Shown: one piece after another, positions 14,447-56,965 of the stretch
Numbering within the stretch: the stretch's first letter is position 1
Layout: the number at the start of each line of letters is the position of its first letter
Virus record (IMG/VR): IMGVR_UViG_2061766007_001954
Source: an uncultured virus (IMG/VR IMGVR_UViG_2061766007_001954)
Lineage: Duplodnaviria > Heunggongvirae > Uroviricota > Caudoviricetes
Length of the DNA: 64,000 nucleotides
Reading direction: 5' to 3' (one strand)
Made by a program: the position numbers and the translations under genes
Notes under the pieces: model-generated
Databases searched by the model: none
What the model was told of the DNA's origin: nothing
What the model saw: the letters and a program-made list of their open reading frames with translations, nothing else

Positions 14447-14470
14447 CATTGAACCAATACGAGGTTTTAT

Positions 14471-15628: not shown

Positions 15629-15645
15629 TTTGAAAGGTATATACT

Positions 15646-16461: not shown

Positions 16462-16464
16462 TCT

Positions 16465-17193
16465 ATGCCTGACACTAATCCCACAATCAACAATCTGATG
16501 CGGGCACAGCAGAAGTTTATCTCTAATGTGCTCGCTAAAAACCAAAAGGATATTCAGGTTTTCCGGATGGATGATTATCCAACCATCCGGAAGATCCTAT
16601 TTAACAACGTCAAGAATGCTATCTCTCAGCGCTTCCCCCTCTATAATGACAGATATACGCTCACTATAGAGGACGTCGACTACGATGATCCAGAAGACAT
16701 CGATATTGCCAAGCAGAAACAGGCAATCCTTGATGGTGCATCTGTTACTCGTCGACTTCGTGGCACCTGGGTTCTCCGAGATGCCAAGACCGATAAAGAA
16801 GTTAGTCGCACCAAGCGTATGACTCTTATGAGTGTTCCATATATTACAGATAGGGGAACATTTATCCGCAATGGCCATGAATACGCCTTTTCTAATATCA
16901 TGCGCATGGAGCCCGGCGTATACACGAAGCAGCGTGATGACGAGGTATCTGCACAGTTCAATATCCAGCAAGGCACAGGCTCAGGTTTCAATATGATGCT
17001 GATGCCGAATACCGGTGTCTTCAAGATCAAAAGAGGCACAGCTACCGCTCCTGCTTATACAGTGTTTCATGATCTTGGCGTCTCTGATGATCAGATGAAA
17101 GAGGCCTGGGGTCAGGAATTGTTTGACAAGAATAAAGCCGCCGGTACGGATGAGAAAGCTATACAGGCTGCCAGCAAGATATATAATATGTAA
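16465..17193 (+). CDS. rpoB: RNA polymerase beta N-terminal fragment
   Basis: VPYITDRGTFIRNGHEY...MRMEPGVY matches bacterial beta IPLMTDNGTFVINGTE...LHRSPGVF. Confidence 0.85.
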   Translation: MPDTNPTINNLMRAQQKFISNVLAKNQKDIQVFRMDDYPTIRKILFNNVKNAISQRFPLYNDRYTLTIEDVDYDDPEDIDIAKQKQAILDGASVTRRLRGTWVLRDAKTDKEVSRTKRMTLMSVPYITDRGTFIRNGHEYAFSNIMRMEPGVYTKQRDDEVSAQFNIQQGTGSGFNMMLMPNTGVFKIKRGTATAPAYTVFHDLGVSDDQMKEAWGQELFDKNKAAGTDEKAIQAASKIYNM

Positions 17194-17194
17194 C

Positions 17195-18241
17195 ATGACC
17201 TACGAAGCCTTCAAAAAGCAAGCAGATAGAAGCTTCTTCCCAGGAAGCACCATGCCGGTACCATATACTGGCAGGTCGGCTGCTGCACCCACAGAAGGCG
17301 CTATTCCTGCGACAGCTGAGCAGATTCGTAGCCAGGAGGCCTGGAAGGAAGGCTTCAAAGAAGGACTTGCTGGTGCTCTCAAAGGTGATGGATTTAGAGG
17401 CTTGGCGCGTGGGGCGTTGCATGAAACAGCAGATACACTGGATTTCATACAGAATGCCCCTGTTAGGACTGCTTTCATTTCACCAATGTTAATTGGCAAA
17501 GGCATTACCTATACAACAGGTAATGATAGGGCTGAACAAGGTATTCGCAAGACACGCAACTTCCTGAACAATCTGCTTAATTTTAGCGGGCATCAGATAA
17601 CTGGCAGTATGCGTCAGCTTGCAGAGACCACGGCACTTGATCCCAAGCATCTGTCCCAGGAGGCTTACGATCAATCTGTGTTGGCCGGTAAAGGTGGTAT
17701 TATGGCTGCCGATCTTGCTATCTCTGGTAAGCTTCCTACAAAAGCTCTGAATATTTTGGCTGCTACAGAGATACCTGATGCCGTTACACAAGGGGCAGCA
17801 GCTGTGGAGCCTGTTGTTAAAGAGATCAGATCCGCTGCTAGAAGACAAGCAGGACACGATGCAATGACTGAGTACTTCAAGAACAGGACACAGACGCCTG
17901 CTGGTCCATTCATTGCACATGTACCTAAGTTAGAAAAGAACTTTATTAATGATCTTGCTATTAGTGAAGCTGCTAACGATCTGGAAGGTGTAGAGATACT
18001 GGACAGGATCGAACAGGACGCTGATGCCATCAATACACAGCGCGCTATTAAGGAGCTTAAGCAGATAGCAAAACAGACAGCTGGTGCAGGCACCGGAGGT
18101 CTTATTGGGCTTACCACTGCACATCAGATAACAAAACGTATTCCAGCCCTCAAGAAGAGACGCATCTTACGGTATCTTCTGAATGCAGCTGCTGCAGGTG
18201 GGCTTGGATATGCAGGATGGAAACTAACACAGAAGGTGTAA
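17195..18241 (+). CDS. putative virion cargo protein with C-terminal membrane hairpin
   Basis: MTYEAFKKQAD leader; IPALKKRRILR between Gly-rich helices. Confidence 0.55.
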   Translation: MTYEAFKKQADRSFFPGSTMPVPYTGRSAAAPTEGAIPATAEQIRSQEAWKEGFKEGLAGALKGDGFRGLARGALHETADTLDFIQNAPVRTAFISPMLIGKGITYTTGNDRAEQGIRKTRNFLNNLLNFSGHQITGSMRQLAETTALDPKHLSQEAYDQSVLAGKGGIMAADLAISGKLPTKALNILAATEIPDAVTQGAAAVEPVVKEIRSAARRQAGHDAMTEYFKNRTQTPAGPFIAHVPKLEKNFINDLAISEAANDLEGVEILDRIEQDADAINTQRAIKELKQIAKQTAGAGTGGLIGLTTAHQITKRIPALKKRRILRYLLNAAAAGGLGYAGWKLTQKV

Positions 18242-18242
18242 C

Positions 18243-18701
18243 ATGAATATCAATACAATTCGTACAGCGCTTATTAAGCGTGCCGGTCTTTTTGATGGGC
18301 TTGGTGATAAGCTCGGTGAATATAATGCTGCAAAAGCGGCAGCACAGCCTGGTGCTATGGCTGGAAAGTGGCTTCGTGGAAAGCTTGGTCTTGATGGTCA
18401 GCCTCAACAGCAGCCACAGGCACAGCAACCGCAAGCAACTCAATCTGTGCAGCAGCCTGCGGCCAATGCGCTTCCACAGGATGCCCAAGTGCAGCAACAG
18501 CCCAATCAGGTTGCCCAGCAGAACGAAGCGCTCATCTCTTCTTTTAATAAGATGATGAACACAATCAATTCCAGCAACAAAACAGTTGCTCCACAGCAGG
18601 CACCTGCAGTGCAACCACAGCAGCAAACAGGGGCCTCTTCACTGCCTGCTATGAAATCTCCGAATTATCTCGATGCCGTTAAGCCGAATAACCAGAAATA
18701 A
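18243..18701 (+). CDS. Gln/Pro-rich low-complexity protein
   Basis: LIKRAG leader; Q-rich body. Confidence 0.55.
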   Translation: MNINTIRTALIKRAGLFDGLGDKLGEYNAAKAAAQPGAMAGKWLRGKLGLDGQPQQQPQAQQPQATQSVQQPAANALPQDAQVQQQPNQVAQQNEALISSFNKMMNTINSSNKTVAPQQAPAVQPQQQTGASSLPAMKSPNYLDAVKPNNQK

Positions 18702-18747
18702 GCATACGACAAGAGTAATATAACAGGTATATTTGCATAAGAGTTTT

Positions 18748-20547
18748 ATGGGTATCGAGCGTGTTAAAGCGTTTATGCTAAAGAAGGCTGCTGATCCGTC
18801 CTGGAAAAAGTGGCTTAACAGCATAGGCTTTACTGGGTCATCTCCAGAAGATGAACAACGCAGGGCACAGGCATTTCGTGCGTCTAATATTCATACTTAT
18901 GCGACTGAAGAAGCCTTTGAAAATGCTGGTTTCAATTCAGATAAAATTGATACCACAGCTGCTTCTATGGGGCATGCTCCAAGATCTTATAGGAATGAGG
19001 GTACACTAAGAGATGGGCACATACCTTATTCTTATAAGCCAATAAATAATAGCTCTACAAACCGCAGTGGCTGGTCTTACACAATATATAAACCCACACC
19101 AGCGAGTGATGGCGTTTATAACACTAGGGATAGCGTTAACTTTAATGTGTATACAGAAAGGCTGCCTAATTACAGATATGGGAAGCAGTTGCAAGAAGCA
19201 ACATCCGGCTATACTAAACAGCCTTTTAACATGCAGCAATTGATGTCCATGCAGGCTGGTGATAACGGTTATTTGGACAAGCTCTTGGCACACTATAGAT
19301 CGATCAATCCAGCATATTGGAGAGATGCTAATTTGCAACTAAGTTCTCCTGCTGAGATTGAAAAGTGGAAAGCAGCTGTACCATCTATAGCGCCTAAGGT
19401 GATTAATGATCCTTTAGGTAATTCTTCCAGATACAATTCAGATAGCGGATCTATAACGACTACTCCTTATAACCAGAGGATAGATGATTATGAAAATCAT
19501 GTGAATAATAGTAGCGATGATCCTGGTCAGAGTCCTTTATTGGCTAAACCCTCCAATAATGCAGATTCATTATTTCGGATGCGACATACACCATACGCGG
19601 CCGCTGCTGATTCCTTCTTCCATGAGCTAAACCATTATAATTCTATAGGGCAGCTTAGAATGGGAACTAAGCCTTATCCGCATATGGAAAATATACCAGC
19701 TGATCGTGGCGGTAATGCGGTGCTCATGCGACAAGCTACACCAAAAGGTCTATATCTTACTCCTATGCAGGGAAAATGGATAGAGAATCATAATATTGAG
19801 CCATATGTAGTAAACGAAAACGAAATGAATCAAGCACTTCTGAGCTTTAATGCCGGACGATATCGTCTTCAGAAGGATATGCAAGAGAATCCAGATAACC
19901 CGAATTATGCACAGATTGATCCAAGCGTTCGACAACAGTTTGCTAACTTTCCACAGTTTATACAACCCGGTGAAGCCGGAGCTAAACAGTTAGATGAGTT
20001 GATGGCATTCTATGACCAGAACCCACAATTCATTACTATGATGCCAGAACAGGCACGACTTGTTGGTTATTATAAGAATCTTAAAGCAGCTGTTGAAAAT
20101 GCAGAAGATTCAGTAGAGAAAGAGTTCTTTCAAGGTATGATGAATCGAATGATATATAACAAGGCGTTTCTTGCAAATAATCAAAGAAGTAATCCTAATC
20201 AACCAAAGGTAGCATCATATACAGAGTTTAAGAAACAAGCCGCACTTAGTGCAATTATTGCCCCTGGTCTTGTAACAGCAGGCGGTTTATATTTAGGGCT
20301 TAACAGTGTTCCAGCACTTAAGAAGAAACGACTGCTTCGTGCTATGCTTGCTACAGCAGGTGGACTCGGTGTATCTGGTTCTATTTATGGCTTACAAAAG
20401 CTCGTTACTCCGGATATGGCTGGCATTAAAGATCATATCCATTCTAAGTACGAAGATTGGAAACGCAATGAGCTGAAACGCTATCTTATGTCAGACGAAT
20501 TAGGGCAGCCGTATCAATCAGAATGTTTTGATACAAAGAGCAAATAA
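18748..20547 (+). CDS. HExxH zincin-domain protein with C-terminal membrane hairpin
   Basis: FFHELNHY; flanked by KKAAD and YTEFKKQAA; VPALKKKRLLR; start uncertain. Confidence 0.55.
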   Translation: MGIERVKAFMLKKAADPSWKKWLNSIGFTGSSPEDEQRRAQAFRASNIHTYATEEAFENAGFNSDKIDTTAASMGHAPRSYRNEGTLRDGHIPYSYKPINNSSTNRSGWSYTIYKPTPASDGVYNTRDSVNFNVYTERLPNYRYGKQLQEATSGYTKQPFNMQQLMSMQAGDNGYLDKLLAHYRSINPAYWRDANLQLSSPAEIEKWKAAVPSIAPKVINDPLGNSSRYNSDSGSITTTPYNQRIDDYENHVNNSSDDPGQSPLLAKPSNNADSLFRMRHTPYAAAADSFFHELNHYNSIGQLRMGTKPYPHMENIPADRGGNAVLMRQATPKGLYLTPMQGKWIENHNIEPYVVNENEMNQALLSFNAGRYRLQKDMQENPDNPNYAQIDPSVRQQFANFPQFIQPGEAGAKQLDELMAFYDQNPQFITMMPEQARLVGYYKNLKAAVENAEDSVEKEFFQGMMNRMIYNKAFLANNQRSNPNQPKVASYTEFKKQAALSAIIAPGLVTAGGLYLGLNSVPALKKKRLLRAMLATAGGLGVSGSIYGLQKLVTPDMAGIKDHIHSKYEDWKRNELKRYLMSDELGQPYQSECFDTKSK

Positions 20548-20570
20548 CCTCTACTCCCGGTATACATTTT

Positions 20571-20596
20571 AGCCCCTCCACAGTGAGGGGCTTTTT
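20571..20596 (+). terminator. intrinsic terminator
   Basis: AGCCCCTC...GAGGGGCT + TTTT. Confidence 0.8.
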
Positions 20597-20647
20597 GTTG
20601 TACAGTAGTTACGTTCAAGCTCTATTAAGATTTCAGGAGATTACTAC

Positions 20648-23600
20648 ATGAATGAACCTAATGTGAATCCTATTCAGCAACAGGCTGCTACAGTTAGCCC
20701 GGTGCATATTCATAATGAGAAGCCAAAAAAGACTGCCCAGGATTGGGTACGTGATATGCGTATGTCTGCTGCGGTCAATAAGGCTACTACAGGAGTAGAA
20801 ACAGACCAAGTTACTCCTGATCTGCTGCTTGCAACTTCCAAGCGTCTTCTTGGTATTTCTAAACGTGAGCAGGAACCAGATCCTAAGGACTCACTTGCAT
20901 TCCAGCGTTTTTATGGCCCGGAGATGTTGTTCTCCGAGCATATTCTGCGTGATAACGGAAAGCTTGGACGTAATATCCTGTGGAAGGCAACCAATCGTGG
21001 TAATCTTGATTTCATGCCTGTCGGTGCACTTGAGAAGCATATCTCATCGGTCTTTTATGATAGCAAGCTTGCTCAGATGATGGATGGTTCTTCGCCTCTT
21101 GAGACTGTCGACTCTGCCTATAAGACTACACGACTTGGTGAGGGCGGTATTGGCTCACTAGAGTCTGCGCCTGATGAAATGCGCACTGTGCAACCTTCTT
21201 ATTTTGGTTATATAGATCCGATCAGATGCTACGCAGAAGATACGGAGCTGATGACCGAAAATGGCTGGAAGAAAGTTCAGGATATAACCGGTGATGACAA
21301 GCTTGCATGTTATGTAAAGGGACGGCTAGAGTATCATAAGCCCTCTGCACTTAGTGTCTACGATTATAAAGGCGAAATGTGTGGATACGACGATGGTTAC
21401 GTATCCTACCTGGTCACACCAAATCATAGAATGTTTACAAGGACCTCATATCCGAAACGTAACGGAAAGGCATGTGGTTATAAGATACAGACCGCAGAGG
21501 ATATTCATGGTACCATGCGTACTGTTGACACTGGTATGCATGCTCCAGTTCTGCGGGATGAGGATGAGACAGTATTCCACCTGCCACAGGTAGATGCAGC
21601 ACTAAAGCATGAGCAGGTTCATGGGATGCCACCACAGGGGGCATCTCTAAAGAATATTGATGAGATTGATATTGTTGATTTTGCTGAATACCTTGGTTGG
21701 TATCTCTCAGAGGGTTCCTTTGCCATTGACCATAAGAAGGGCTATTATAGGGCGGATATCACACAGTCTTCTAAGGTGAACCCTGAAAATTATCAACGTA
21801 TCAAAGATCTGATCGAGCGACTGCCTTTTAATGCCACATGTCCTCCTGTAGAGGCGGGTAAGAGCAGGTTGTCTATAGGACGGAAGCAGCTCGTTGTCTA
21901 TTTGTCTCAGTTTGGTAAATGCGACGATAAGTTTATACCAGAGTGGATTTTCAATGCCCCTTTGAAGGCTCGTTGTGCTTTTCGTGATGCTATACTGATG
22001 GGTGATGGCAGAGATCAGAGACACCTGTGTACTAAGTCTAAGCGCCTGGCGCTCGACTTTGAGCGCCTACAGTTTGAACTTGGAGAATCTGTGTTTGTAT
22101 ACAACGAACCAGAGAAGCGTTATGAAGGGCATCCTGGCATCTGGATTGTATATTGGCACAAGAGAAAAGAGATCGGCCTGCGTAAGAAGATAGCTAGATC
22201 GGGGAAGATTCCGTATTTTAAGGAGCAGTATGATGGCAAAGTTTATTGTCCGACTGTTCCTGGTGGTTTGGTCTATTGTAGACGAAATTCGAGCTCATTT
22301 GGGTTCTGGTGCGGGCAGTCTCCGGAGAGCTTGAGAGTAGGATTAGATATTTATATGTCTAAGAATGTTATGAAAGGTACAGATGGAAAACTGTATCAAA
22401 AGTTCATAGATGCAAAGACAGGTAAAGAGGTCCTGCTCGACTCGGAAACGGCTGCTAACTCTGTAGTTGCAGCTCCTGAAATGATGGAAGCCAAGACCAA
22501 GTCTGTATATGCGCTTGGTGGTCCAACTGGTATCCATGTCGTTCCTCGTTCTTCTGTGCAGTATTATCTGCCACGGGCTGATGAAGCTTATTCTGCAGCA
22601 TCCAATCTGATTCCTATGCTTTCCGGTGTGAAGAACATGCGTGTACAGATGGGCTGCCTGCATCCGGATACCAATGTAATTGTAATTGATAAGCATGGTC
22701 TCATTACATCTAAGCAGGCGAAGGTTCTTAGTAAAGGTAGTCTTCCTGGTAGTACAAAAGAAGGCGCATCGCAAGTCTATCCTATTAAAACGACTGTAGC
22801 TAAGTTCCCTCCGCAGAAGAATTGGTTCCGCAAAGTAATCCTCCGCTCTGGCCGCTCTCTTATAACATCCGCTGATCATAGATGGTCAGTCCTTCGTGGG
22901 GGTGAATATAAACTTGTAGCAGCAAAGGATCTTCGTAAGGGCGATATTGCTCTGCGTACTACTTTTAAGGATGTCCCATCTCGCCGCACTTTCATCAACC
23001 ATATGCTTGTCAATAAACAGCTGGCTAAAGCGCTAGGTATTATCGCTCGTTCCTTGGATGAGCCAGATAATAAGAAGATGCGTGTTACCATGCAGGAAGC
23101 CGATTATGATGACTTCCTTGCAGCGATGAAGCGTATCGGCTATACAGAAGGCTTCAATACCTATTACGTTGAGCACAATTTCTATGTCGGCATTCGTGAT
23201 GAGGGTCTTCGTAATCTTTTGAGAGATTTGTTCGACTCCGATGATCGCTATCGCCATATTCCAGCAGAGATCATGTCTGCCGGGGCAGCTATTGTCGCCG
23301 CCTTTATTGATGGTTATACATCAGATCTTACTAAGATGGGACAGGATTCCAATGATGATATCTGGGTTCTCGATATTCCTAATCTTCGTATGAGAGATGA
23401 ACTTGCTTTTTTGTTCGCAAGACTTGAAACAGATACATTGTATCGTGACAGAGTTGCGGGTAAGGCTATGGACCTTGCGCTTAAGCTGGTTCCTATGGAG
23501 ATCGGCTATGGCGATATGATTACAGATGAGATCAAGCTGGTGCAGAAGGGTATTCATGCGCCGCTGATGATTGATATCGACATCAATGATAATCTGTATG

Positions 23601-26600
23601 CAACCGCTAATGGTGTTGTTACACATAACAGCAAATATCCGTTGCAGGCTATCAGTATCTCTTCTAGGGAGGCTCCACTCGTGCGCGGTCTGGATGAAGC
23701 CACGGGTAAGGATATGCCCACACTGGTGGGTAAATATCTTGGTGCTAGATTCGCTAATAAGGACGGTGTTGTTACAGCGGTTCGTAAAGATCGTATTGAT
23801 GTGCTCTATAATGACGGTACTAAAGGGAAGATCGATATGTATGTCAACTTCCCGATGAATGCTAAGGGCTATATCAACAACACTCCTGTTGTTAAGGCTG
23901 GACAGGCGTTTAAGAAGGGTGATGTGCTGGCTTCTTCTAATTATACGGATGACAAAGGAGTGGCTGCTATAGGAACGAATCTGCGCACTGGCTGGCTTAG
24001 CTGGAAGGGGGGTACTTATGAGGATGCCATTGTTATAAGTGAGTCTGCTGCCAAGAAGTTAACTAGTACCACTATGTACAAGACAGCAGTGGATCTTGAT
24101 AAGACAGTTACGCTGGGCAAGAAGAATTATCTTACTTGGAAACCTACCGAGTTTACAAAAGAGCAGATGGCTAACCTCGATGATAATGGTATTGTTAAGC
24201 CAGGTACACTGCTGCATAAAGAAGACCCAATGGTGCTGGCTGTAAGAACGACAGAACCGTCTCCTGGTACTATGGGTAAACGCATTCTTACAGATCTCAG
24301 CGAGCGCTGGGAGCATGATAACCCCGGTGTTGTGACAGATGTTGTAAAGACACGTAATGGTGTTAAGGTTTACGCGACTGTTACGGCACCTGCAGAAATT
24401 GGGGATAAGCTCAGCGGTTGCTTTGATGACAAGACTGAGGTTTTTACCGAAAAACGAGGCTTTGTGCTGTTCAAAGACCTCATGCCCGAAGATAAAGTTG
24501 CTGTGCTTCATGAGGATGGCTCTGCTACGTTTGATCTGCCGCTCGCATATCAGACTGCCAGATATACAGGCTGTATGATAGAACATAAAACGCGCAGAAC
24601 AAGCATGATGGTAACGCCAAATCATAATATTGCATTTGTGCCAAGACGCGACTATGAGAAGGGTAATATAGTGCCAGTCAAGCGAGAGGCGCATGAGGTT
24701 TATGGAAAACGCATTTTTATGCGGGTCAGCGCAAACTTTGATTCTGTCTTAGCAAATCCTATCCATAGCACTATAAGTTTATCTGGTGGGAACACCTCTG
24801 GTGATAGTCGTTTTAAGTCCATTTTCCTTAGAAAAGATTTTGCTGCATTCCTTGGTCTCTATTTGGCTGAGGGACATTGTGCACATAAGAATGGACAGCA
24901 TTGGATACGTATCTCACAATACGATAGTGTAGATGGTGGTGAAGAGCGTTGCGCCCAGATTCGTAGATTGCTTGAATCTATGGGGGTTAGGTGGTATTAT
25001 TATGATCACCAGTATTTTACAATTAATAACCATATTCTTCACGCTTATGTCGAGCCGCTTGGTAATAGCTATGGAAAATATATACCGGAAGAGGTGTTTA
25101 CAACGTGGTCTAAAGAGGATATGAACACACTTTTGGACTGGTTTTATCTTGGTGATGGTGAGAAGACCATTAAAGAAGGTGGTTCAAAGCGCTGCGCCAC
25201 AGTTTCACTGCAGTTAGCAAATGACCTACAGCGGCTCTATATCTTAACAGGTCATTATAGTGCACTTCATAGTACATTCGCAAAGAACACGAAGACAGGA
25301 GTCATTTACAAGATTTCCAGTTCGTATAGAGAATTTGTGGAGTTTGGCACGCAGGATGGTTGGAGGATAGCTGATAATTATGTAGGTATGGTGTATTGTG
25401 TTACATCAACGACCGGCATAATTCTTACGCGTAGAGATGGCTGCATCGCATGGAATGGCCAGTCGTATGGTAACAAAGGGACCATCTCACAAATCATTCC
25501 AGATGATGAAATGCCTCGTGGTGCCAAAGGTGAACCTCTTGAGCTGCTCTTTAGCCCCCTGGGCTTGATTACCCGTACGAATCCCGCCCAGCTTTATGAG
25601 GCTCAGCTTGGTAAGATTGCTAAGAAAACAGGCAAGCCGATCGTGGTGCCTTCTTTCTTCAAGGGCTCTATGCAGGAATATGTAGCAGACCAGTTAAAAC
25701 AGCATCATATCAAGCCCGATGAAGACCTCGTTAACCCCGAGACAGGCCTTCCGATTAAAGATGTGCTTACTGGCTATTCCTATATATACAAGTTGAAGCA
25801 TTTGTCCGAGTCTAAGATGTCGGCACGTGGCACGTCTACCTATGATGCAGAACAGGTCCCTGCCGGCAAAGGCATGGACGGTTGTTTTCCATATCATCAG
25901 AAGCTCCTTACTCGCGACGGGAAACAGACTATCGGTTCTATTGCCTCGAACTTTGGCATCGCCAGAGTGACTACCCTTAATGATGATAAAGAACGACGCT
26001 ACTTCAGAGTTACTGACAGATTCCAGCGAGTTGTTCCTCGTGACCAGCTTGTTGAAATTATTCCTGCCTGGTCCTATGATAGCCTCGGTCGCGTTACTAA
26101 GCCCATAAGCATGATGCCTACTGTGAACCATGCAATCTATATGTATGATATGACTCAGCAGCATGCAGGGTTTCTCAAGCCGGGCTGTAAGCTTGCCGGT
26201 GTCGGTATGCGACCCTCTGATGAGCAGATGCAGGTGCTTTGGCAGCTCATACATAGTGTTGGTGTTGTGCAGAATGACGAGCTTCATGTGCTCTATGATG
26301 TGGAAGCCTATTCGCTTGCCAAGTTTAAGCACAGTATTCTAAAGCCGCTTGGCTGTAAATTGGATAAAAAGAATCAGACGCTTATTCTGCCTCGTTATAG
26401 GCTTTGGGAAGCAGCTGTAACAGATAATGACTGTGGCGAGCTTGCCAAGTCTATTGATATTCTGGAACGCGCAGCTGAGGGTAGTCATCGTGTTAACTCG
26501 AAGCTTTTCAATATGATTGCAGATTGGATTCCTGCAAAGTATATTCCAGCTTATGCAGGTAGTGTTAAAGTCTTTGCAGAAAAAGCTCAGAGAGTTGTTC

Positions 26601-28563
26601 CTTGCATCGAAATTCGTACAGCTTCCCATATGGGGCTTATGCCGATTATAGTTACCGGTGTCAAACGCCAGAAAGGAACAGACCCCGTTAAGGTGTTTGA
26701 TATCACTGTTGAGGAGTCACACCGCTATACACTTGATGGTGGGTTCCTTGTCAGTAACAGCAAGCGCTTCGGCACACTTGAGCAGTCGGCGATGGCCGGA
26801 CACGGAGCTTTCGATATTATTAAGGATTCTAAATATATTAGAGGTCAGAGTAATAGCGACTTCTGGCGCTCTCTTAGAACTGGTGATATTCCAACTGTTC
26901 CTGGTGAGCCTCTAGTGCATAAGAAGTTCTTTGCGCATCTTACCGGTGCTGGTGTTAATGTCAGAAAGACTCCACAGGGCGTTAGTATCTTTGCGCTTAC
27001 TAATAAAGATGTCGATGAGTTAGCTGGTCCACGGGAACTGAAGAGTCGTGATACCTACGAAGCTCGTACATTCCGTCCGATGGATGGTGGACTGTTCGGA
27101 CAGGATGTCTTTGGCATTAACGGAGACAAGTGGGGTTATATACAGCTGGATGAACCTGTTCCTAATCCTGTTATGGAGGAACCGCTCGCGCGTCTGCTTG
27201 ATATCCCTGAAAAGCAGTTCGCTGATGTTGTATCTGGTAAAGTAGAAGTTAATGGTATTCGTGGGCCTGTTGCTATGAAGCAAGCGTTGGAAAAGATGGA
27301 TCTTACAGCTGCAGCGGCAAGAGCGCTCGATGAATATAAGCGCAGTTCTGCGTCCAATAAGGACAAAGCCCTTAAAAAGTATGTAGCTATCGAGCGTATG
27401 CGCCGGCAAGGCGTGAATCCTGCAGAGTACATGCTTGATAGGATTCCTGTGTTACCACCCATTTATAGGCCCATCAGTACGCATAACGGGCTTACCATGG
27501 TTGCTGACAGCAATTATCTGTATGCACAGTTGCTGGACGCCAGAGATGATGAACGTGAGTCTAAGAACCTGCCGAAGGAGCTGCAACAAACTGCACGAGA
27601 AAATCTTTATAATAAATGGNNNNNNNNNNGGATAGGATTCCTGTGCTGCCTCCTATTTATAGGCCTATCAGTACACATAACGGACTTACTATGGTTGCTG
27701 ACAGTAATTACCTGTATGCGCAATTGCTGGACGCAAGAGATGATGAACGCGAGTCCAAGAATTTGCCGAAGGAGCTGCAACAAACTGCACGAGAAAATCT
27801 TTATAATAAATGGAAGGAACTGACCGGACTTTATGCTCCACAGGATGTAAAGCTTCAAAGCAAACATGTGCAGGGGTTGCTGAAGTGGGCCCTTGGAGAT
27901 TCACCGAAATTTTCAGCGTTACAACGCAAGGTTTTAAGCGCAACGGTCGATACAGTTGGGCGCGGAGCGATTACACCTGATAGCAGACTTCGGTTGAATG
28001 AGCTTGGTATTCCTGCAGAAATGGCTTTTAATATCTTTGCGCCTATGGTTGAGCGTAGCTTGGTCAAGCGGGGCTACACACCGGTGCAGGCTATGAAGAT
28101 GGTAAAAGAACATAATGATCAGGCGCGTGATGTCTTGAATGAGGTTATGAAAAACCATCCAGTGCTGATGAATCGGGCTCCCACGCTGCATAAGCTGAGT
28201 ATTATGGCATTCAATCCTAGACTTGTGGATGGACATGCGATCCACGTAAATCCTTCTATAGTGGTGCCGTTCGGTGCCGACTTCGACGGGGACACTGTTA
28301 ATATTCATGCACCTGTTTCTGATGCTGCACGTAGACAAGCATATGAAAGAATGATGCCAGAACGCAATCTTATTTCGATGCGTTCCCGTTCTATTCTTTA
28401 TAAGCCTGAAAAAGAGTATCAGCAGGGCCTTTATATCGGAACCCGCATCAAGAAGGGCAGTGATGTACGCACGCATTACTTTAATACGTTGGAAGAGGCT
28501 AAGCAGGCGTATCGACAAGGCCTTATAGATATCGACGATCCTATTGAAATTAGACAAAAATAA
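20648..28563 (+). CDS. rpoBC: RNA polymerase beta(mid/C)-beta'(N/catalytic) fusion with four inteins; one gene once the 194-nt gap duplicate is collapsed (2573-aa precursor, 1244 aa spliced)
   Basis: beta motifs RLGEGG, GDKLSG|SYGNKG, YKLKHL, KRFGTLE run without a stop into beta' motifs GGLFG..FG, PVLPPIYRP, NRAPTLH, GADFDGD (28273-28293). Confidence 0.9.
21227..22318 (+). mobile_element. intein 1 (364 aa, LAGLIDADG-type, C-terminal Gln)
   Basis: PIR|CYAEDT...VTPNH...LGWYLSEG...LMGDG...WCGQ|SPE. Confidence 0.85.
22655..23629 (+). mobile_element. intein 2 (325 aa, canonical HN end, degenerate endonuclease)
   Basis: QMG|CLHPDT...TSADH...VTHN|SKY. Confidence 0.88.
24419..25462 (+). mobile_element. 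intein 3 (348 aa, LAGLIDADG-type, C-terminal Gln)
   Basis: GDKLSG|CFDDKT...VTPNH...LGLYLAEG...YLGDG...WNGQ|SYGNKG. Confidence 0.87.
25883..26758 (+). mobile_element. intein 4 (292 aa, SN end, degenerate endonuclease)
   Basis: GMDG|CFPYH...PTVNH...VFDITVEESH...LVSN|SKRFG. Confidence 0.85.
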
Positions 28564-28581
28564 CATACAGGAGCATTTCTT

Positions 28582-29589
28582 ATGCACAATATCGCTAATG
28601 TCATCAATGCATTTAACAAGCGGGCAACCGCTGTTCTGACACCGGAAGCCATGCAGGCTGCCATTCAGCCGCCTATGGATCCGGCTGCTGCAGGAGGTGC
28701 TCCGATGGATCCTTCTATGGGTGGAATGCCAGGAGGTGCTCCGATGGGCGGTGCCCCTGCTGATCCTGCTGCTATGGGCGGTGCCCCAACAGCACCCCAG
28801 GGTTCCGGTGGTGGTGCTATCCCTCCGGAGATCCTGAATGACCAGCTCTTCATGCAGTTTATGCAGGCTATGGGTGTTACCTTTGATCCACAGTCTGGTA
28901 ATTTTATCGATCCAAATGGTCAACCGCTCTCGGTCGACGAGGTGACGCAGATCTACGACATGTTTCAACAGCAAGTTGCCGCGCAGCAGGGCGGAGCCGC
29001 TGAAGGTGCTGCGGCAGCTGATCCTGCTATGGGCGGAGCGCCAATGGATCCTGCTGCTATGGGAGCACCCATGGGCGATCCCGCTGCTATGGCTGGTATG
29101 CCGCCTGAAGCTGCAGCAGAAGTTCCTCCTGCTGGCCCAGAAGCTATGGTACCAGCCGGACCCGATATGGGAGGAGATCCTGCTATGGGGGCTGCCGATC
29201 CTGCAATGGATCCTGCTGCTGTTGGCGGTGGTGCTGCTACTGGCGCTGAAGATCCAGTAATGGAAATCGCATCAGCTGTTATGACTGGCGTGGAAGCGAC
29301 ACTTGAAGACTTTACTCAGGCACTGACCGAGAAGATTTCTTCGCTTATGGAAAAGATCGAAGATCTCTCCAAGGCTGTTGAAGCAATTGAGAAGACGAAA
29401 GATGGTCGCTCTGATGATGATAAGAAAGAACAGCTGAGTGTCGAAGACGAATTGGCCGCAGATCTGGCGCTTGATGAGAATATTCAGCCTGTTGCAGAAC
29501 CAGTGCCTCCTATGCTTTCTCCTAAGACCGCTAGTATGCAGGCTCCTCAGCCGATCAATCTTTATAATTTCATTTGCAAAAAGGCGTAA
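28582..29589 (+). CDS. Met/Asp/Pro/Ala/Gly repeat protein with C-terminal coiled coil
   Basis: Repeated (P)MDPAAMG/DPAMG; KRAT and KTAS near the termini. Confidence 0.7.
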   Translation: MHNIANVINAFNKRATAVLTPEAMQAAIQPPMDPAAAGGAPMDPSMGGMPGGAPMGGAPADPAAMGGAPTAPQGSGGGAIPPEILNDQLFMQFMQAMGVTFDPQSGNFIDPNGQPLSVDEVTQIYDMFQQQVAAQQGGAAEGAAAADPAMGGAPMDPAAMGAPMGDPAAMAGMPPEAAAEVPPAGPEAMVPAGPDMGGDPAMGAADPAMDPAAVGGGAATGAEDPVMEIASAVMTGVEATLEDFTQALTEKISSLMEKIEDLSKAVEAIEKTKDGRSDDDKKEQLSVEDELAADLALDENIQPVAEPVPPMLSPKTASMQAPQPINLYNFICKKA

Positions 29590-29592
29590 TCA

Positions 29593-31443
29593 ATGCCTAC
29601 TACTTTAGGTCGCGAAATATTGAGGTCCAGATTACCGGACCAGTATAAAAGCCTTGCAGATCGTACTTGGGATAAGAAAACATCTGATCAGATAACGACA
29701 CAGATGGCCCAGGACGATCCCGATGCTTACATTGACATCCTGCAGGATTTGAATAACTTTGGGCAGACTGTTGTGTCTACTTATGGTAGAGACGCTGCTT
29801 TGCCGTTCCGTGACTTAAAGGTCAGCGCTAACATCCGTAATATCAATGCCAAGATTCGTCAGCTCATCGACAAAATACTGGATGATGATCGACTGACAGA
29901 CTCCCAGAAAGAGCAGAAGATAACAGAACTCGGCTATAAGTACACACAGAAGGTAGAAGACGCTGTATTCGATGATATGGATAAGCGCAACACAGCGCTT
30001 GCCAGTCAGATAAATTCTGGTGCTCGCGGCAAAAAAGTGCAACTTCGTCAGATGCTGTTTGGCGACATGCTGATGAAAGATGCGCTGAATCGTGATATGC
30101 CTTATCTGATGATGGATGCATACGCTGATGGCGCTACGCCTACGGGCTACTGGGTAAGTGCGAGCTCTGGGCGTAAAGGTTACTATGATGTCCAGATGGC
30201 AACCGGTCAATCCGGCTATCTGGGCAAGCGTGTAACAGCTGCTACTCATGACACTATTATTAGTGAGGATGACTGCGGAACTACTGATACAGGTGTTCCA
30301 TTCCCTGCCAACAGCACCAGCAATATTGGAGCTGTATTGCTGAAGCCCTTCCATGATCACCCGGCTGGAAGTATCGTCGACAGTAAGATGGTAGCAGAGG
30401 CGGATGACGATGAAGAGATGATTCTTCGTAGCCCTATGACATGCAAAAGCAAGATCGGTGTATGTGCCAAATGCAACGGACTTGGTGAGAATGGAAAATT
30501 CCCTGGAATTGGTGAATATGTTTCTTTGAATGCTGCTAGAAGCTTCGTGGAACCTGTTACTCAAGGCGCTGTTGGTTCCAAGCATGCTGGCGGTATTGGT
30601 GGCAAGAAAGTCATTAATCCAGAGGGTGAGGACCAGCCTACTGGTTTCCGTTCGCTGGAGCGTATGTTCACCACGCCATCCAACTTCCCTGGTGGCGCTG
30701 TATTGGCTCCCGTCGATGGGACTGTCAGCAAGATTCAGCCAGCGGCTCAGGGTGGTACCTATGTTACTGTTGGTAATAAGACGTTGTATTGTTCCCCTTA
30801 TCGCACAATTAAAGTAAAGGAGGGTGATAAGGTTTATGCAGGTGATGTTCTTACCAATGGTGTGCCTAATCCGATGGAACTGGTGGCATTAAAGGGTCTT
30901 GGTGCTGGTCGTGTTTATTTTACAAAACAACTTGGAAAAATTTTGAAGGAAAGCGGCTGGGGGACGGAGCGTCGTAATCTTGAGTCTTTCTCTAGGGCCT
31001 TCCTTAATAAGGTTGAGATAACCAATCCTGACGGTTATCATAATTTCCTGCCAGGAGATACTGTCAACTATAGCGAGATCATGGCTGATTATGAACCGCG
31101 TGATAACTCAGAAGAGCTTGAGCCCTCCAAAGCCATTGATCAGTATCTTGAGAAACCGGTTCTTTATTACAGCATAGGCACTCGCATTACACCTGAAGTT
31201 GCTGCTGACCTTAAGAAGTATCAGTTCAACAGCATATTGGTGAATAAAGAGGCGCCTCCGTTTGCATCCAAGTTTATGAGACCTGCTGAAGGATTGCAAA
31301 AGGATAAGAACTGGCTTCCTCGTCTGTCTGGTGAACGGCTTAAAGAAGGGCTGTTCGATGCAGCAAGACAGGGTATTACAGATCCATATGACTCTCCATC
31401 CTACGTGGATAAGATTATCATCAACCCATTGAAACCGAATTAA
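29593..31443 (+). CDS. rpoC: RNA polymerase beta' C-terminal fragment
   Basis: SGARG, bridge helix GRKG..D...T.QSGYL, DCGT, RSPMTC..VCAKC, trigger loop EPVTQ..KHAGG. Confidence 0.9.
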   Translation: MPTTLGREILRSRLPDQYKSLADRTWDKKTSDQITTQMAQDDPDAYIDILQDLNNFGQTVVSTYGRDAALPFRDLKVSANIRNINAKIRQLIDKILDDDRLTDSQKEQKITELGYKYTQKVEDAVFDDMDKRNTALASQINSGARGKKVQLRQMLFGDMLMKDALNRDMPYLMMDAYADGATPTGYWVSASSGRKGYYDVQMATGQSGYLGKRVTAATHDTIISEDDCGTTDTGVPFPANSTSNIGAVLLKPFHDHPAGSIVDSKMVAEADDDEEMILRSPMTCKSKIGVCAKCNGLGENGKFPGIGEYVSLNAARSFVEPVTQGAVGSKHAGGIGGKKVINPEGEDQPTGFRSLERMFTTPSNFPGGAVLAPVDGTVSKIQPAAQGGTYVTVGNKTLYCSPYRTIKVKEGDKVYAGDVLTNGVPNPMELVALKGLGAGRVYFTKQLGKILKESGWGTERRNLESFSRAFLNKVEITNPDGYHNFLPGDTVNYSEIMADYEPRDNSEELEPSKAIDQYLEKPVLYYSIGTRITPEVAADLKKYQFNSILVNKEAPPFASKFMRPAEGLQKDKNWLPRLSGERLKEGLFDAARQGITDPYDSPSYVDKIIINPLKPN

Positions 31444-31495
31444 TTTTATGTTAAACGATACTAATATAAGACAACAGAGCACTAAAGGAGCTACT

Positions 31496-33613: not shown

Positions 33614-33626
33614 GCCTAATAGGACT

Positions 33627-56955: not shown

Positions 56956-56965
56956 AAGGCATATT

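What the first reader, a model, noticed from the sequence alone, without database searches (positions are those of the whole stretch)
16465..31443. Re-partitioned three-gene RNA polymerase with a beta-beta' fusion inside the head operon
Seen: beta-N (242 aa), a single chain containing both catalytic barrels (beta end GAGVNV runs into beta' start VSIFALT), and beta'-C (bridge helix/trigger loop), separated by putative virion genes. No alpha or omega subunit in the window. The fusion has KKTAQ at about residue 28. Established: full RpoBC fusions occur in Helicobacter and Wolbachia; phiKZ-like RNAPs are split differently and are far more divergent; a metagenomic Caudovirales lineage with multi-subunit RNAP (mReC) is reported and is the first comparison to make. 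Inference: a minimal, possibly alpha-independent and virion-packaged RNAP.
Basis: partly seen in the sequence, partly recalled or inferred. Interest (0 to 1): 0.85.

Follow-up and report, generated by a model that had tools for sequence, protein, structure and literature searches.

The report
Phage RNA polymerase with fused β–β'
A gut phage carries its own bacterial-style RNA polymerase whose two large subunits are fused and re-cut into three genes interrupted by four inteins, an arrangement that proves common in uncultured phages but that I could not find described.

Summary
Window 16465-31443 (+ strand) encodes a bacterial-type RNA polymerase core in three genes. They are betaN (242 aa), a chain joining the rest of beta to the N-terminal part of beta' (both catalytic barrels), and beta'C (616 aa).

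The fusion frame is broken in the window only by a scaffold join at 27620-27813 (10 N plus a 183-nt duplicate). Contigs from three independent runs and 7 of 7 relatives read straight through. The precursor (2,573 aa) carries four inteins in beta; the mature chain is about 1,244 aa.

The fusion plus a separate beta'C is not a one-off. It appears in 78 of 80 IMG/VR loci, in 112 of 120 database proteins, and in cultured phages (Salmonella phage Arash, Vibrio phage D181), where it is annotated 'beta' or hypothetical. The separate betaN is derived within the window's subclade.

No alpha, omega or second polymerase set was found in five related genomes. Sigma-like genes are present.

Virion packaging is inferred, not shown. 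The genes lie between portal and capsid genes, sit in the TAG-recoded block of one relative, and Arash virion proteomics found both chains abundant. The intervening genes are not shown to be virion genes.

This is a new variant of a known kind.

The parts
16465..17193 (+). betaN gene, 242 aa. It corresponds to about the first 210-225 residues of bacterial beta.
   Evidence: Mean column identity is 81% over 6 relatives. It is a separate gene in L002-L006 and L008.
17123..18241 (+). Unknown gene. The ORF runs from a TTG; the real start is probably later. The C-terminus has a Gly-rich hydrophobic stretch, then PALKKRR, then a second hydrophobic stretch.
   Evidence: A homolog was found only in L002 (46% identity, alignment from residue 66). 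No hits in Pfam, PHROGs or NCBIfam. The Atlas search gave only weak leads.
18243..18701 (+). Unknown gene, 152 aa.
   Evidence: No family hit. No tblastn match in the relatives at 1e-5.
18733..20547 (+). Unknown gene, 604 aa, with the same C-terminal hairpin motif. It is absent from the closest relative, L002.
   Evidence: homolog only in L004. No family hit.
20571..20592 (+). Terminator-like hairpin (8 pairs, 6 G-C) followed by a T run, between the 604-aa gene and the fusion gene.
   Evidence: The overall count of such sites is not above the shuffles. An AGGAG lies 8 nt before the ATG at 20648.
20648..21226 (+). Fusion gene, extein 1 (193 aa). It continues beta where betaN stops.
   Evidence: Aligns to Arash gp206 residues 225-416 and ends exactly at the intein Cys.
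21227..22318 (+). Intein 1 (364 aa; Cys1, ends Gly-Gln, next residue Ser).
   Evidence: Absent from Arash, D181 and L003-L006. Its middle part matches the intein endonuclease PI-PkoII, E 1e-4.
22319..22654 (+). Extein 2 (112 aa).
   Evidence: Aligns to Arash gp206 residues 415-525.
22655..23629 (+). Intein 2 (325 aa; Cys1, ends His-Asn, next residue Ser).
   Evidence: Pfam Intein_splicing E 2e-4, below Pfam's cut-off. Absent from Arash. Vibrio phage D181 has its beta gene cut at this same site, with a free-standing homing endonuclease gene in the gap.
23630..24418 (+). Extein 3 (263 aa), first part of the beta catalytic domain.
   Evidence: Rpb2_6 profile positions 2-229, E 1e-20.
24419..25462 (+). 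Intein 3 (348 aa; Cys1, ends Gly-Gln, next residue Ser), with a LAGLIDADG domain.
   Evidence: LAGLIDADG_3 E 5e-5, 23.9 bits against a cut-off of 22.5. It splits Rpb2_6 between profile positions 229 and 232.
25463..25882 (+). Extein 4 (140 aa), second part of the beta catalytic domain.
   Evidence: Rpb2_6 profile positions 232-361, E 1e-23.
25883..26758 (+). Intein 4 (292 aa; Cys1, ends Ser-Asn, next residue Ser).
   Evidence: Absent from Arash, D181 and L003-L005. No significant domain hit. It is called an intein from its position and end residues only.
26759..27619 (+). Extein 5 up to the scaffold join: the beta C-terminus, a short linker (RKTPQG, about 26963-26980) and the beta' N-terminus.
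   Evidence: A profile matches bacterial beta' residues about 150-280 at E 5e-20. Rpb1_1 E 1e-5. In Arash the Rpb1_1 match starts at profile position 11, 88 residues after the end of Rpb2_6.
27620..27813 (.). Assembly artefact: 10 N plus a second copy of the preceding 183 nt. It is not part of the gene.
   Evidence: contigs of X3 and X16 skip 194 nt; X7 continues from 27619 into 27814 onward.
27814..28563 (+). End of the fusion gene (249 aa): the beta' catalytic barrel with GADFDGD (about 28273-28293). The stop comes 89 residues after the motif.
   Evidence: Rpb1_2 E 1e-28. Positions 321-535 of 1147 of the rpoC model. Ends at the same point as Arash gp206..
28582..29589 (+). Low-complexity protein (335 aa): Pro/Met/Asp/Gly-rich repeats, then a charged helical tail. 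Kept between the fusion gene and beta'C in relatives.
   Evidence: Alignment A1. Homologs in L002-L008. No family hit.
29593..31443 (+). beta'C gene (616 aa): the bridge helix and trigger loop region, with an inserted sandwich-barrel-like piece.
   Evidence: Rpb1_5 E 2.5e-16 and a weak Peptidase_M23-like hit at 367-420. Positions 550-1065 of 1147 of the rpoC model. Bacterial beta' chains from about residue 590-668 on, E 6e-41. Arash gp216, 97% coverage.
8256..10136 (+). Portal gene (context).
   Evidence: Arash gp204 portal, tblastn E 3e-47.
40296..41285 (+). Major capsid gene (context).
   Evidence: Arash gp226, E 1e-18. phrog_2522 major head protein, E 3e-6.
56831..57775 (+). Sigma-like gene among the baseplate genes; a likely specificity factor for this polymerase.
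   Evidence: Sigma70_r3 E 2.9e-7. FliA/WhiG family E 1e-6, far below the model's cut-off.

Best explanation
The region encodes the catalytic core of a phage-owned, bacterial-type multisubunit RNA polymerase that is cut differently from cellular enzymes. There are three chains.
1. betaN, about the first 225 residues of beta.
2. The rest of beta, continued through a six-residue linker into beta', up to about 90 residues past the Mg-binding DFDGD loop. One chain therefore holds both catalytic barrels.
3. beta'C, with the bridge helix, the trigger loop and the C-terminal parts.

The fusion is made as a 2,573-aa precursor. It must splice out four inteins that sit in conserved beta motifs, giving a chain of about 1,244 aa. 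The whole core is about 2,102 aa.

Shown: gene structure, continuity of the frame, homology, conservation, and purifying selection.

Inferred:
- The three chains assemble without an alpha dimer or omega. The covalent beta-beta' link does part of the tethering job.
- Phage sigma-like factors give promoter choice.
- The enzyme is made late together with head genes, packed into the capsid and injected to transcribe early genes. It is the only phage polymerase.
For: Architecture:
- for domains and boundaries.
- Continuity across the join.
- Spread of the fusion: 78 of 80 IMG/VR loci have the junction and the beta' barrel in one table-11 frame. The other 2 are TAG-recoded.
- 112 of 120 listed database proteins carry both PF00562 and PF00623, and 119 of 120 hold the junction and the barrel segment.
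- beta'C lies downstream on the same strand in 67 of 80 loci.
- The top 150 of 974 representative clusters (E <= 1e-30) all have the beta'C match starting at their own N-terminus or, where an intein splits the match, lengths and paired stretches that fit that form.

Separate betaN is derived:
- 66 of 80 loci have betaN in the same frame as the fusion.
- The 9 split taxa form one clade with support 1.0, nested among full fusions.

No alpha, omega or second polymerase set:
- PF01000, PF01193 and PF01192 gave 0 of 5 related genomes (4 of them 93-100% complete), with controls 14 of 14.
- Rpb1_2 and Rpb2_6 each hit one frame per genome.
- The phage beta' families phrog_3015 and phrog_2962 hit only the beta'C gene.

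Sigma:
-.

Late expression and packaging:
- The genes lie between portal and capsid genes.
- In the TAG-recoded relative G005, betaN, the fusion and beta'C hold 10, 64 and 35 in-frame TAGs, like the portal and tail genes. The block with NrdD, ThyX, helicase and RNA ligase has almost none.
- Arash virion mass spectrometry: Gp206 had the most spectra (3,516). Gp216 had 1,210 and sigma Gp10 had 467 (PMC10585845, passages).
Against: - There are no virion data for this phage.
- The Arash study lists 116 proteins in particles, including ribonucleotide reductases, a primase and helicases. Carry-over of abundant non-structural proteins is therefore possible, as its authors say themselves.
- TAG density is not a clean late marker. 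The capsid gene of G005 has only 1 TAG.
- Profile searches could miss a very divergent alpha-like platform or a phiKZ-like second polymerase.
- Host alpha could be recruited.
- Two inteins end in Gln, not Asn.
- Intein 4 has no domain hit, and Pfam gave intein 1 none.
- Splicing has not been shown.
- The Asn of the cellular NADFDGD motif is not kept (Gly here; Ala or Met in relatives). The meaning of this is unknown.
Confidence: 0.6

Rival explanations
1. The same enzyme, but not packaged. It would be a middle or late polymerase made during infection, like the non-virion enzyme of phiKZ-type phages. Host RNA polymerase would then transcribe the early genes and the polymerase genes themselves.
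For: - The Arash particle preparation also held many metabolic and replication enzymes (116 proteins). Presence in that list is therefore weak evidence.
- Relatives carry a Sigma70_r2 sigma in the TAG-poor block. That sigma could equally redirect host polymerase.
- Sigma-70-type promoter-like sites are somewhat more frequent than in the shuffles in 14000-33900 (42 against 29.8, sd 5.9).
Against: - The polymerase genes sit inside the portal-to-capsid block on the same strand.
- They are as heavily TAG-recoded as the portal and tail genes in G005.
- Gp206 had the highest spectral count of all Arash particle proteins.
- No second polymerase set was found that could play the virion role.
Confidence: 0.3
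2. The phage chains do not work alone. They borrow host alpha (and perhaps omega) as an assembly platform, giving a hybrid enzyme.
For: - The enzyme is close to bacterial RNAP in sequence.
- It uses sigma-like factors.
- No phage alpha was found, which fits borrowing as well as independence.
Against: - A packaged enzyme would have to carry host alpha along or meet it after injection.
- Alpha-less phage multisubunit polymerases are on record (review PMC7598289, passages).
- The covalent beta-beta' link removes part of the need for a platform (inference).
- Nothing here tests alpha contact surfaces.
Confidence: 0.25
3. The long fused frame is an artefact of metagenome assembly or scaffolding: a chimera of separate beta and beta' genes.
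For: The window is a scaffold with 5 N-runs. One of them lies inside this gene, with a duplicated flank.
Against: - The beta to beta' junction lies 675 nt before the gap, in an uninterrupted frame.
- Independent contigs bridge the gap.
- 7 of 7 close relatives, 78 of 80 wider loci and the finished genomes of cultured phages Arash and D181 show the same fusion.
Confidence: 0.02
4. The genes are decaying: intein-ridden, split remnants of a captured host rpoBC that no longer make an enzyme.
For: Four insertions and two cuts in essential genes. Two atypical intein ends (Gln).
Against: - There are no stops or frameshifts.
- 39 of 40 listed differences between runs are synonymous.
- betaN has 81% mean column identity among relatives.
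- The three Asp of the Mg loop and the conserved beta motifs are kept.
- All four insertions start with Cys and are followed by Ser.
- The arrangement is kept across a very large clade.
Confidence: 0.03

Closest known systems
Salmonella phage Arash gp206 + gp216 (OQ632216; BMC Microbiol 2023, PMC10585845)
   Same: - The beta-beta'N fusion ends at the same residue, and beta'C is a separate gene.
- The genes lie after the portal gene and before the capsid gene.
- Sigma genes are present.
- No alpha or omega was found.
- Both chains are abundant in particle proteomics.
   Different: - Only 25-37% identical.
- The whole of beta is in the fusion, so there is no separate betaN.
- There are no inteins.
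- The paper and the record call gp206 'subunit beta' and do not note a fusion (passages and record annotation).
Vibrio phages D181, D148, D69 (OZ196140 and others)
   Same: A three-gene layout with a betaC-beta'N fusion (1,006 aa) and a separate beta'C (609 aa).
   Different: - Beta is cut later (first piece 514 aa), at the very site where the window has intein 2.
- A free-standing homing endonuclease gene sits in the gap.
- All pieces are annotated hypothetical.
Natural RpoB-RpoC fusions of Helicobacter and Wolbachia (NCBIfam NF007172, NF011417 'subunit beta/beta'')
   Same: The beta C-terminus runs directly into the beta' N-terminus in one chain. The window's pieces match these models.
   Different: - Those are whole beta plus whole beta' in cells that have alpha and omega (recalled).
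- Here betaN and beta'C are separate chains, and no alpha or omega was found.
phiKZ/AR9-type split phage polymerases (review PMC7598289; PMC7824862)
   Same: - A phage multisubunit enzyme without alpha or omega.
- The beta' is cut after the catalytic barrel.
- A virion-packaged form exists (passages).
   Different: - Those have four or five separate chains, no fusion, two enzyme sets per genome and no sigma, and they are far more divergent.
- Here there is one set, sigma-like genes, and easy recognition by cellular models.
mReC, multisubunit-RNAP-encoding Caudovirales (Weinheimer & Aylward 2020, PMC7481178)
   Same: Tailed phages from metagenomes whose beta and beta' are recognisable with cellular profiles.
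   Different: - In the rows I read of their table (supplementary file 5, parts 12-13), beta and beta' are always different ORFs, mostly about 1150 and 1410 aa.
- The main text does not mention fusion, split or inteins for mReC.
- Their Gp23-type capsid family was not found here.
- Some rows with 'beta' of 1400-1590 aa could be unrecognised fusions. I could not check this.
Cyanobacterial and plastid split beta' (gamma/RpoC1 + RpoC2)
   Same: The cut is in the same region after the catalytic barrel. The fusion ends at position 553 of 619 of the gamma model. beta'C residue 99 aligns to position 82 of the RpoC2 model.
   Different: The cut is not at the identical residue; it is offset by some tens of residues. 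There is no fusion to beta in cyanobacteria.

Membership tests
Bacterial-type multisubunit RNAP catalytic core | Beta catalytic domain (Rpb2_6, double-psi barrel region). | tested here: met
   E 5e-43 on the whole chain. The profile is collinear across intein 3.
Bacterial-type multisubunit RNAP catalytic core | Beta' barrel with the three-Asp Mg loop. | tested here: met
   Rpb1_2 E 1e-28 and GADFDGD. The cellular Asn before the loop is replaced.
Bacterial-type multisubunit RNAP catalytic core | Beta' bridge helix and trigger loop region. | tested here: met
   Rpb1_5, positions 550-1065 of the rpoC model, and alignment to E. coli beta' 724-1029. The individual helices were not mapped.
Bacterial-type multisubunit RNAP catalytic core | Alpha dimer and omega encoded with it. 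| tested here: not met
   No hit in the window's ORFs of 100 aa or more. PF01000, PF01193 and PF01192 gave 0 of 5 related genomes, with controls 14 of 14.
Bacterial-type multisubunit RNAP catalytic core | Sigma-70-family initiation factor. | tested here: inconclusive
   Sigma70_r3 E 2.9e-7 in the window. Sigma70_r2 in 5 of 5 related genomes. That these serve the phage enzyme and not the host's is untested.
Natural RpoBC fusion (Helicobacter/Wolbachia type) | Beta C-terminus joined to beta' N-terminus in one frame. | tested here: met
Natural RpoBC fusion (Helicobacter/Wolbachia type) | Complete beta and complete beta' in the one chain. | tested here: not met
   betaN and beta'C are separate genes.
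phiKZ/AR9-type phage multisubunit RNAP | Beta' cut after the catalytic barrel. | tested here: met
   The stop comes 89 residues after DFDGD. The rpoC model is covered to position 535, then from 550. The family's site is taken from passages of a review.
phiKZ/AR9-type phage multisubunit RNAP | All pieces on separate chains, two enzyme sets, no sigma. | tested here: not met
   Fusion. One set in 5 of 5 genomes. Sigma-like genes present.
phiKZ/AR9-type phage multisubunit RNAP | Packaged in the virion. | not testable with these tools
   Only indirect evidence: gene position, the recoded block and Arash proteomics.
mReC clade | Tailed-phage contig with beta and beta' found by cellular profiles. | tested here: met
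mReC clade | RNAP falls inside the mReC branch of the RNAP tree. | not tested
   I held no mReC sequences. The five IMG/VR contig number prefixes were not in the paper's supplementary files.
mReC clade | Capsid of the Gp23 family (PF07068) and terminase PF03237, as reported for the mReC contigs that had them. | tested here: inconclusive
   The window capsid protein has no Pfam hit. PF07068 gave 0 of 5 genomes, but no control genome rang. PF03237 gave 0 of 4 IMG/VR relatives and 1 hit in Arash.
Inteins | An insertion at a conserved host-protein site that is absent from homologs. | tested here: met
   The four gaps in the Arash alignment fall exactly at the insert ends. The inserts vary among relatives.
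Inteins | First residue Cys/Ser/Thr and a nucleophile after the last residue. | tested here: met
   Cys1 and +1 Ser in 4 of 4.
Inteins | Terminal Asn (often His-Asn). | tested here: inconclusive
   Asn in 2 of 4 (inteins 2 and 4) and Gln in 2 of 4 (inteins 1 and 3). Gln-ended inteins that splice are known (recalled).
Inteins | Hint and/or homing-endonuclease domain detectable. | tested here: inconclusive
   Intein 1: PI-PkoII, E 1e-4. Intein 2: Intein_splicing, E 2e-4, below the cut-off. Intein 3: LAGLIDADG_3, over the cut-off. Intein 4: none.

The most novel reading that the evidence does not exclude
A third kind of virion RNA polymerase, beside the single-subunit N4 type and the five-piece phiKZ type. 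It would be a sigma-using, alpha- and omega-free bacterial-type enzyme held together by a covalent beta-beta' link. It would be packed into the capsid and injected as the sole transcriptase of a large, widespread clade of 150-225-kb phages. Mobile elements (inteins, homing endonuclease genes, inserted gene islands) keep re-cutting its genes at the same few conserved sites.
Probability: 0.4. Interest if true: 0.8.

Novelty: new variant of a known kind. Interest (0 to 1): 0.65.

Why it matters
- Cellular RNA polymerases need an alpha dimer to bring beta and beta' together. This is a natural, bacterial-like enzyme that seems to do without it by fusing the two. It still appears to use sigma factors.
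- It has a cultured representative in a laboratory Salmonella strain (Arash). How a minimal core assembles, and whether it can be injected, could therefore be tested directly.
- Database labels such as 'subunit beta' hide a fusion found in at least 188 IMG/VR stretches and over a hundred protein clusters. Phylogenies that treat these as plain beta and beta' need care.
- The clade is a rich natural series of split sites and inteins in an essential enzyme.

Tried and rejected
- Intervening genes: Pfam, PHROGs and NCBIfam gave no hits. The 24 ORFs from the relatives' variable regions gave nothing beyond a ferritin-like and a TPR protein in L007.
- Atlas look-ups of 31448-33613 and 17288-18241 gave nothing usable. 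A P22 gp16-like cluster at 0.80 is below the level of a lead worth quoting as evidence.
- Earlier findings of this scan: none.
- No whole genome is held for the window.
- mReC identity by contig name: none of five number prefixes was found in the supplements.
- PF07068 search: no control rang, so it says nothing.
- Run X5 has only short contigs that do not bridge 27554-27794. That is a part without cover, not evidence.
- X16 is an RNA-seq library, but a contig in it does not show transcription.
- Split-intein joining of betaN to the fusion was considered and rejected. betaN plus extein 1 account for all of Arash gp206 residues 29-416, with no extra 100-aa halves.
- Literature: searches for a description of this fusion found none. 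Searches were listings. Passages were read in PMC7481178, PMC7598289, PMC7824862, PMC10159854 and PMC10585845. PMC10159854 mentions a viral gene annotated 'beta and beta prime' at the base of the mReC branch, without further comment.
- I ran no structure or complex prediction. The chains are too long for the tools, spliced exteins may not be typed, and halves of a split gene would pass by likeness to solved RNAPs.

Full report
WHAT IS IN THE SEQUENCE

The stretch 16465-31443 lies in a long block of + strand genes. Four ORFs there carry RNA polymerase signatures.
- 16465-17193 (242 aa).
- 20648-27823 (2,391 aa as listed).
- 27616-28563 (315 aa as listed).
- 29593-31443 (616 aa).

Pfam places Rpb2_6 (beta catalytic domain, E 5e-43), intein and LAGLIDADG signals and a weak Rpb1_1 in the long ORF. 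It places Rpb1_2 (beta' barrel, E 2e-28) in the next ORF and Rpb1_5 in the last.

The 242-aa protein has no Pfam hit. It does match:
- the N-terminus of a phage protein, Arash gp206 (E 1e-20);
- the NCBIfam rpoB model at positions 15-211 of 1096 (E 1e-8);
- bacterial beta chains around residues 100-270, as a six-sequence profile (best E 3.8e-5).

THE BREAK IN THE FUSION FRAME IS AN ASSEMBLY ARTEFACT

The window has 10 N at 27620-27629. The 183 nt before the gap (27437-27619) recur after it (27631-27813). The copies share 166 of 183 identical bases and give the same 61-aa translation. Four of the window's five N-runs have such flanking duplicates. This is what overlapping contig ends of two strains joined by a scaffolder look like. 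The out-of-frame tail of the '2,391-aa' ORF and the first residues of the '315-aa' ORF are therefore not real.

The true chain is 20648-27619 followed by 27814-28563, that is 2,324 + 249 = 2,573 aa. Three lines of evidence confirm this.
- In 7 of 7 IMG/VR relatives found with the junction segment (61-86% identity), the two parts abut in frame. The closest, L002, has an unbroken 2,575-aa ORF.
- Contigs of public runs laid on 26600-28700 bridge the spot. One contig of X3 (12,304 nt) and one of X16 (6,013 nt) skip exactly 194 nt, which is the duplicate plus the N-run. A contig of X7 ends at 27619 and goes on with the letters of 27814 onward.
- No insertion or deletion was seen in four runs. Of 40 listed differences, 39 are synonymous, one is Ala>Thr and none makes a stop; 15 more were not shown.

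THE FUSION

The string ...HLTGAGVNV-RKTPQG-VSIFALT... (26945 onward) lies 675 nt before the gap, inside the uninterrupted frame. Upstream of it the chain is beta. Rpb2_6 profile positions 2-229 and 232-361 flank intein 3. Downstream it is beta'.
- A nine-sequence profile of the junction segment hits bacterial beta' residues about 150-280 at E 5e-20.
- The last 249 aa match positions 321-535 of 1147 of the rpoC model and hold GADFDGD.
- In intein-free Arash gp206 the Pfam order is Rpb2_3, Rpb2_6 (to residue 934), Rpb1_1 (from profile position 11 at residue 1022), Rpb1_2.

The chain stops 89 residues after the Mg loop. beta'C resumes at rpoC model position 550, so almost nothing is lost at the cut. 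Against the cyanobacterial models the cut lies some tens of residues before the gamma/RpoC2 boundary. That is the same inter-domain region where a review places the phiKZ-type and cyanobacterial cuts (PMC7598289, passages).

FOUR INTEINS

BLASTP against Arash gp206 gives five collinear blocks. Their gaps coincide with inserts at residues 194-557, 670-994, 1258-1605 and 1746-2037 of the precursor.
- Each insert starts with Cys and is followed by Ser.
- Two end in Asn and two in Gln.
- Domain support is uneven. Intein 1 matches the intein endonuclease PI-PkoII (E 1e-4). Intein 2 matches Intein_splicing below Pfam's cut-off, and intein 3 matches LAGLIDADG_3 above it. Intein 4 has no hit.

The inserts sit in conserved beta motifs; for intein 3 this is seen directly from the profile break. 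Intein load varies among relatives. Fusion ORFs are 1,574, 1,574, 1,965, 2,074, 2,457 and 2,575 aa. Some relatives have further inserts in the beta' barrel segment and in beta'C. After splicing, the fusion would be about 1,244 aa and the three chains together about 2,102 aa.

HOW COMMON THE ARRANGEMENT IS

Cultured phages have it.
- Salmonella phage Arash has gp206 (1,525 aa), annotated 'subunit beta'. It is really all of beta plus beta'N, and it ends at the same point as the window's chain. gp216 (606 aa) is beta'C.
- Vibrio phage D181 has a 514-aa first beta piece, then a homing endonuclease gene, then a 1,006-aa betaC-beta'N fusion and a 609-aa beta'C. All are annotated hypothetical. Its beta cut is at the site of the window's intein 2.

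Metagenome data show it widely.
- In the 5.8-billion-protein collection, 133 proteins of 504-2,000 aa match the junction segment at E <= 1e-5. Of the 120 listed, 112 carry both PF00562 and PF00623, and 119 hold the junction and the barrel segment.
- In IMG/VR, 188 stretches encode a relative of the barrel segment. Of the 80 kept, 78 have junction and barrel in one table-11 frame, and the other two are TAG-recoded. In 67 of 80, beta'C lies downstream on the same strand.
- beta'C alone has 974 representative clusters at E <= 1e-30. In the top 150 the match starts at the protein's own N-terminus or, where an intein divides it, the lengths and paired stretches fit that form. Many of these proteins carry C-terminal extensions up to about 1,680 aa.

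THE SEPARATE BETAN IS DERIVED

- Of the 80 IMG/VR loci, 66 have the betaN region in the same frame as the fusion. Five start without it, five run off the locus, two have it upstream in another frame and two are recoded.
- Among the 120 database proteins, 40 are full fusions (junction identity 38-51%). Sixty-one start at extein 1; 60 of these are 51-84% identical.
- I built a FastTree tree of junction plus barrel segments. It used 66 of the 80 loci, the window, Arash and D181. Fourteen loci were dropped as identical, partial or intein-interrupted in that segment. It was rooted on Arash and D181.
- In that tree the nine taxa with a separate betaN form one clade with support 1.0. Their sister group is two full fusions (support 0.994).
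- The genes between betaN and the fusion differ from relative to relative. The window's 604-aa gene is missing from its closest relative, and a terminator-like hairpin follows it.

This pattern fits gene splitting by insertion of foreign DNA, as in D181. No endonuclease gene was recognised in these islands, however.

WHAT THE NEIGHBOURS ARE

The portal gene (8256-10136) and the major capsid gene (40296-41285) were identified through Arash gp204 and gp226. 36432-37865 matches an Arash 'structural protein'. The polymerase genes thus sit inside the head-gene block.

- They have no family hits.
- Two of them (ending at 18241 and 20547) share a C-terminal motif: a Gly-rich hydrophobic stretch, PALKK(K/R)R, then a second hydrophobic stretch. 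It looks like a membrane hairpin.
- 28582-29589 is a Pro/Met/Asp/Gly-rich low-complexity protein, kept at that place in the relatives.

ALPHA, OMEGA, SIGMA AND A SECOND ENZYME

- No alpha or omega family matched the window's ORFs.
- In four IMG/VR relatives (CheckV 93-100%) and Arash, PF01000, PF01193 and PF01192 gave 0 of 5 at E <= 0.1, with 14 of 14 control genomes ringing.
- Rpb1_2 and Rpb2_6 hit one frame per genome.
- The phage beta' families phrog_3015 and phrog_2962 hit only the beta'C gene.
- A very divergent platform protein or second enzyme could still escape these profiles.
- Sigma70_r2 is present in 5 of 5 genomes. The window has a sigma-like gene among the baseplate genes (56831-57775).

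TIMING AND PACKAGING (INFERENCE)

Three indirect lines point to an enzyme that is made late and packaged.
1. Gene position, as described above.
2. One relative, G005 (192 kb, terminal repeats, 100% complete), reads TAG as sense.
   - In-frame TAG is dense (2-4.6 per 100 aa) from about 24 to 128 kb. This block includes the portal, tail and baseplate genes, the sigma-like gene and all three polymerase genes (10, 64 and 35 TAGs).
   - TAG is nearly absent from the rest, which holds NrdD, ThyX, RNA ligase, a helicase and mobile-element genes.
   - If recoding marks late translation, as has been proposed for recoded phages (recalled), the polymerase is a late product.
   - The capsid gene has only one TAG, so the marker is imperfect.
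3. In Arash particles, Gp206 had the highest spectral count (3,516). Gp216 had 1,210 and sigma Gp10 had 467. But 116 proteins were listed, and the authors themselves allow for carry-over (PMC10585845, passages).

A sole phage polymerase that is made late is most simply explained as cargo for the next infection. I put this at about 0.55-0.6.

COMPARISON WITH WHAT IS KNOWN

- The enzyme works like a bacterial core. Its best PDB matches are all bacterial beta' chains, E 6e-41 to 5e-24.
- It shares the fusion idea with Helicobacter/Wolbachia RpoBC.
- It shares the alpha-less state, the beta' cut and the virion idea with phiKZ-type enzymes.
- It is a member of none of these. It fails 'whole beta and beta' in one chain'. 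It also fails 'all pieces separate, two sets, no sigma'.
- As for mReC, the 2020 paper's main text does not mention fusion, split or inteins for its clade. The rows I read of its table list beta and beta' as different ORFs, mostly about 1150 and 1410 aa. Whether the window's clade branches inside mReC was not tested.
- A 2023 paper notes a viral gene annotated 'beta and beta prime' at the base of that branch, without comment (PMC10159854, passages).
- My seven literature searches found no description of the arrangement. The library lacks most subscription journals.

VERDICT

It remains undescribed as such, and it gives a tractable model for a minimal, tethered RNA polymerase. Near-identical DNA occurs in contigs of 20 public runs from 12 studies, labelled bovine, sheep or goat gut metagenome among others.

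Noticed in passing
L008 = G005 (IMG/VR contig, 192,052 bp); also L047: This relative reads TAG as sense. The polymerase-homologous segments hold 98 in-frame TAGs and no TAA or TGA. The TAG positions align mostly with Glu. The majority residue is E at 45 and D at 23 of 98 positions. Of the 28 positions invariant in at least 5 standard-code relatives, 22 are E, 4 D, 1 Q and 1 A. This points to TAG = Glu, not the usual Gln. ARAGORN found only two tRNA-Met genes and no suppressor tRNA. TAG use is confined to about 24-128 kb.
   Followed up: partly
window 15291-15300, 27620-27629, 42977-42986, 46299-46325, 51086-51095: There are five N-runs. Four are flanked by near-identical direct duplicates, which marks them as scaffold joins of overlapping contig ends. 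ORFs across them are misread in the window as given.
   Followed up: partly
window 28273-28293; L002, L006, L001, L009: The Asn that opens the cellular NADFDGD motif is not kept. It is Gly in the window and L003, Ala in L002, Arash and D181, and Met in L006. L002 has DFDSD in place of DFDGD.
   Followed up: no
window 17123-18241 and 18733-20547; L005 4894-5640: Otherwise unrelated proteins share a C-terminal motif: a Gly-rich hydrophobic stretch, P(A/S)LKK(K/R)R(I/L)LR, then a second Gly-rich hydrophobic stretch. It looks like a membrane hairpin or a common anchoring tag.
   Followed up: partly
L009 (Vibrio phage D181) 8265-13779: The beta gene is cut at the same conserved site where the window carries intein 2, with a free-standing homing endonuclease gene in the gap. 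Intein and endonuclease gene thus appear as alternative occupants of one site.
   Followed up: partly
window 6453-7079 and 7083-7583: Two adjacent genes carry a Tad2-like (Thoeris anti-defence 2) domain, E 1.9e-21 and 6e-8. A DUF488 gene lies just upstream at 5986-6375.
   Followed up: no
proteins P0175, P0202, P0211 and others: Many beta'C homologs of 1,000-1,680 aa have the polymerase part at residues about 1-600 and then a long unexplained C-terminal extension.
   Followed up: no
L002 12181-12641; L007 16171-16610; L008 19434-19846; L004, L007 and L008 within the beta' barrel segment: Relatives carry further inserts, probably inteins, in beta'C near residue 330 and in the beta' barrel segment near residue 160-168.
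   Followed up: no
L007 5062-5688: A ferritin-like gene (E 4.5e-25) lies directly upstream of the fusion gene in one relative.
   Followed up: no
G005 (L018, L025-L027): The TAG-poor block holds three TnpB-like genes (OrfB_IS605), a reverse transcriptase, an intein-bearing gene and six of the eight paralogs with pentapeptide repeats. Six of those eight also carry DUF7666, five of them in this block.
   Followed up: no
L041 and L068: In two IMG/VR relatives the betaN region lies upstream of the fusion in another frame. These are further independent cuts or frameshifts in beta.
   Followed up: no
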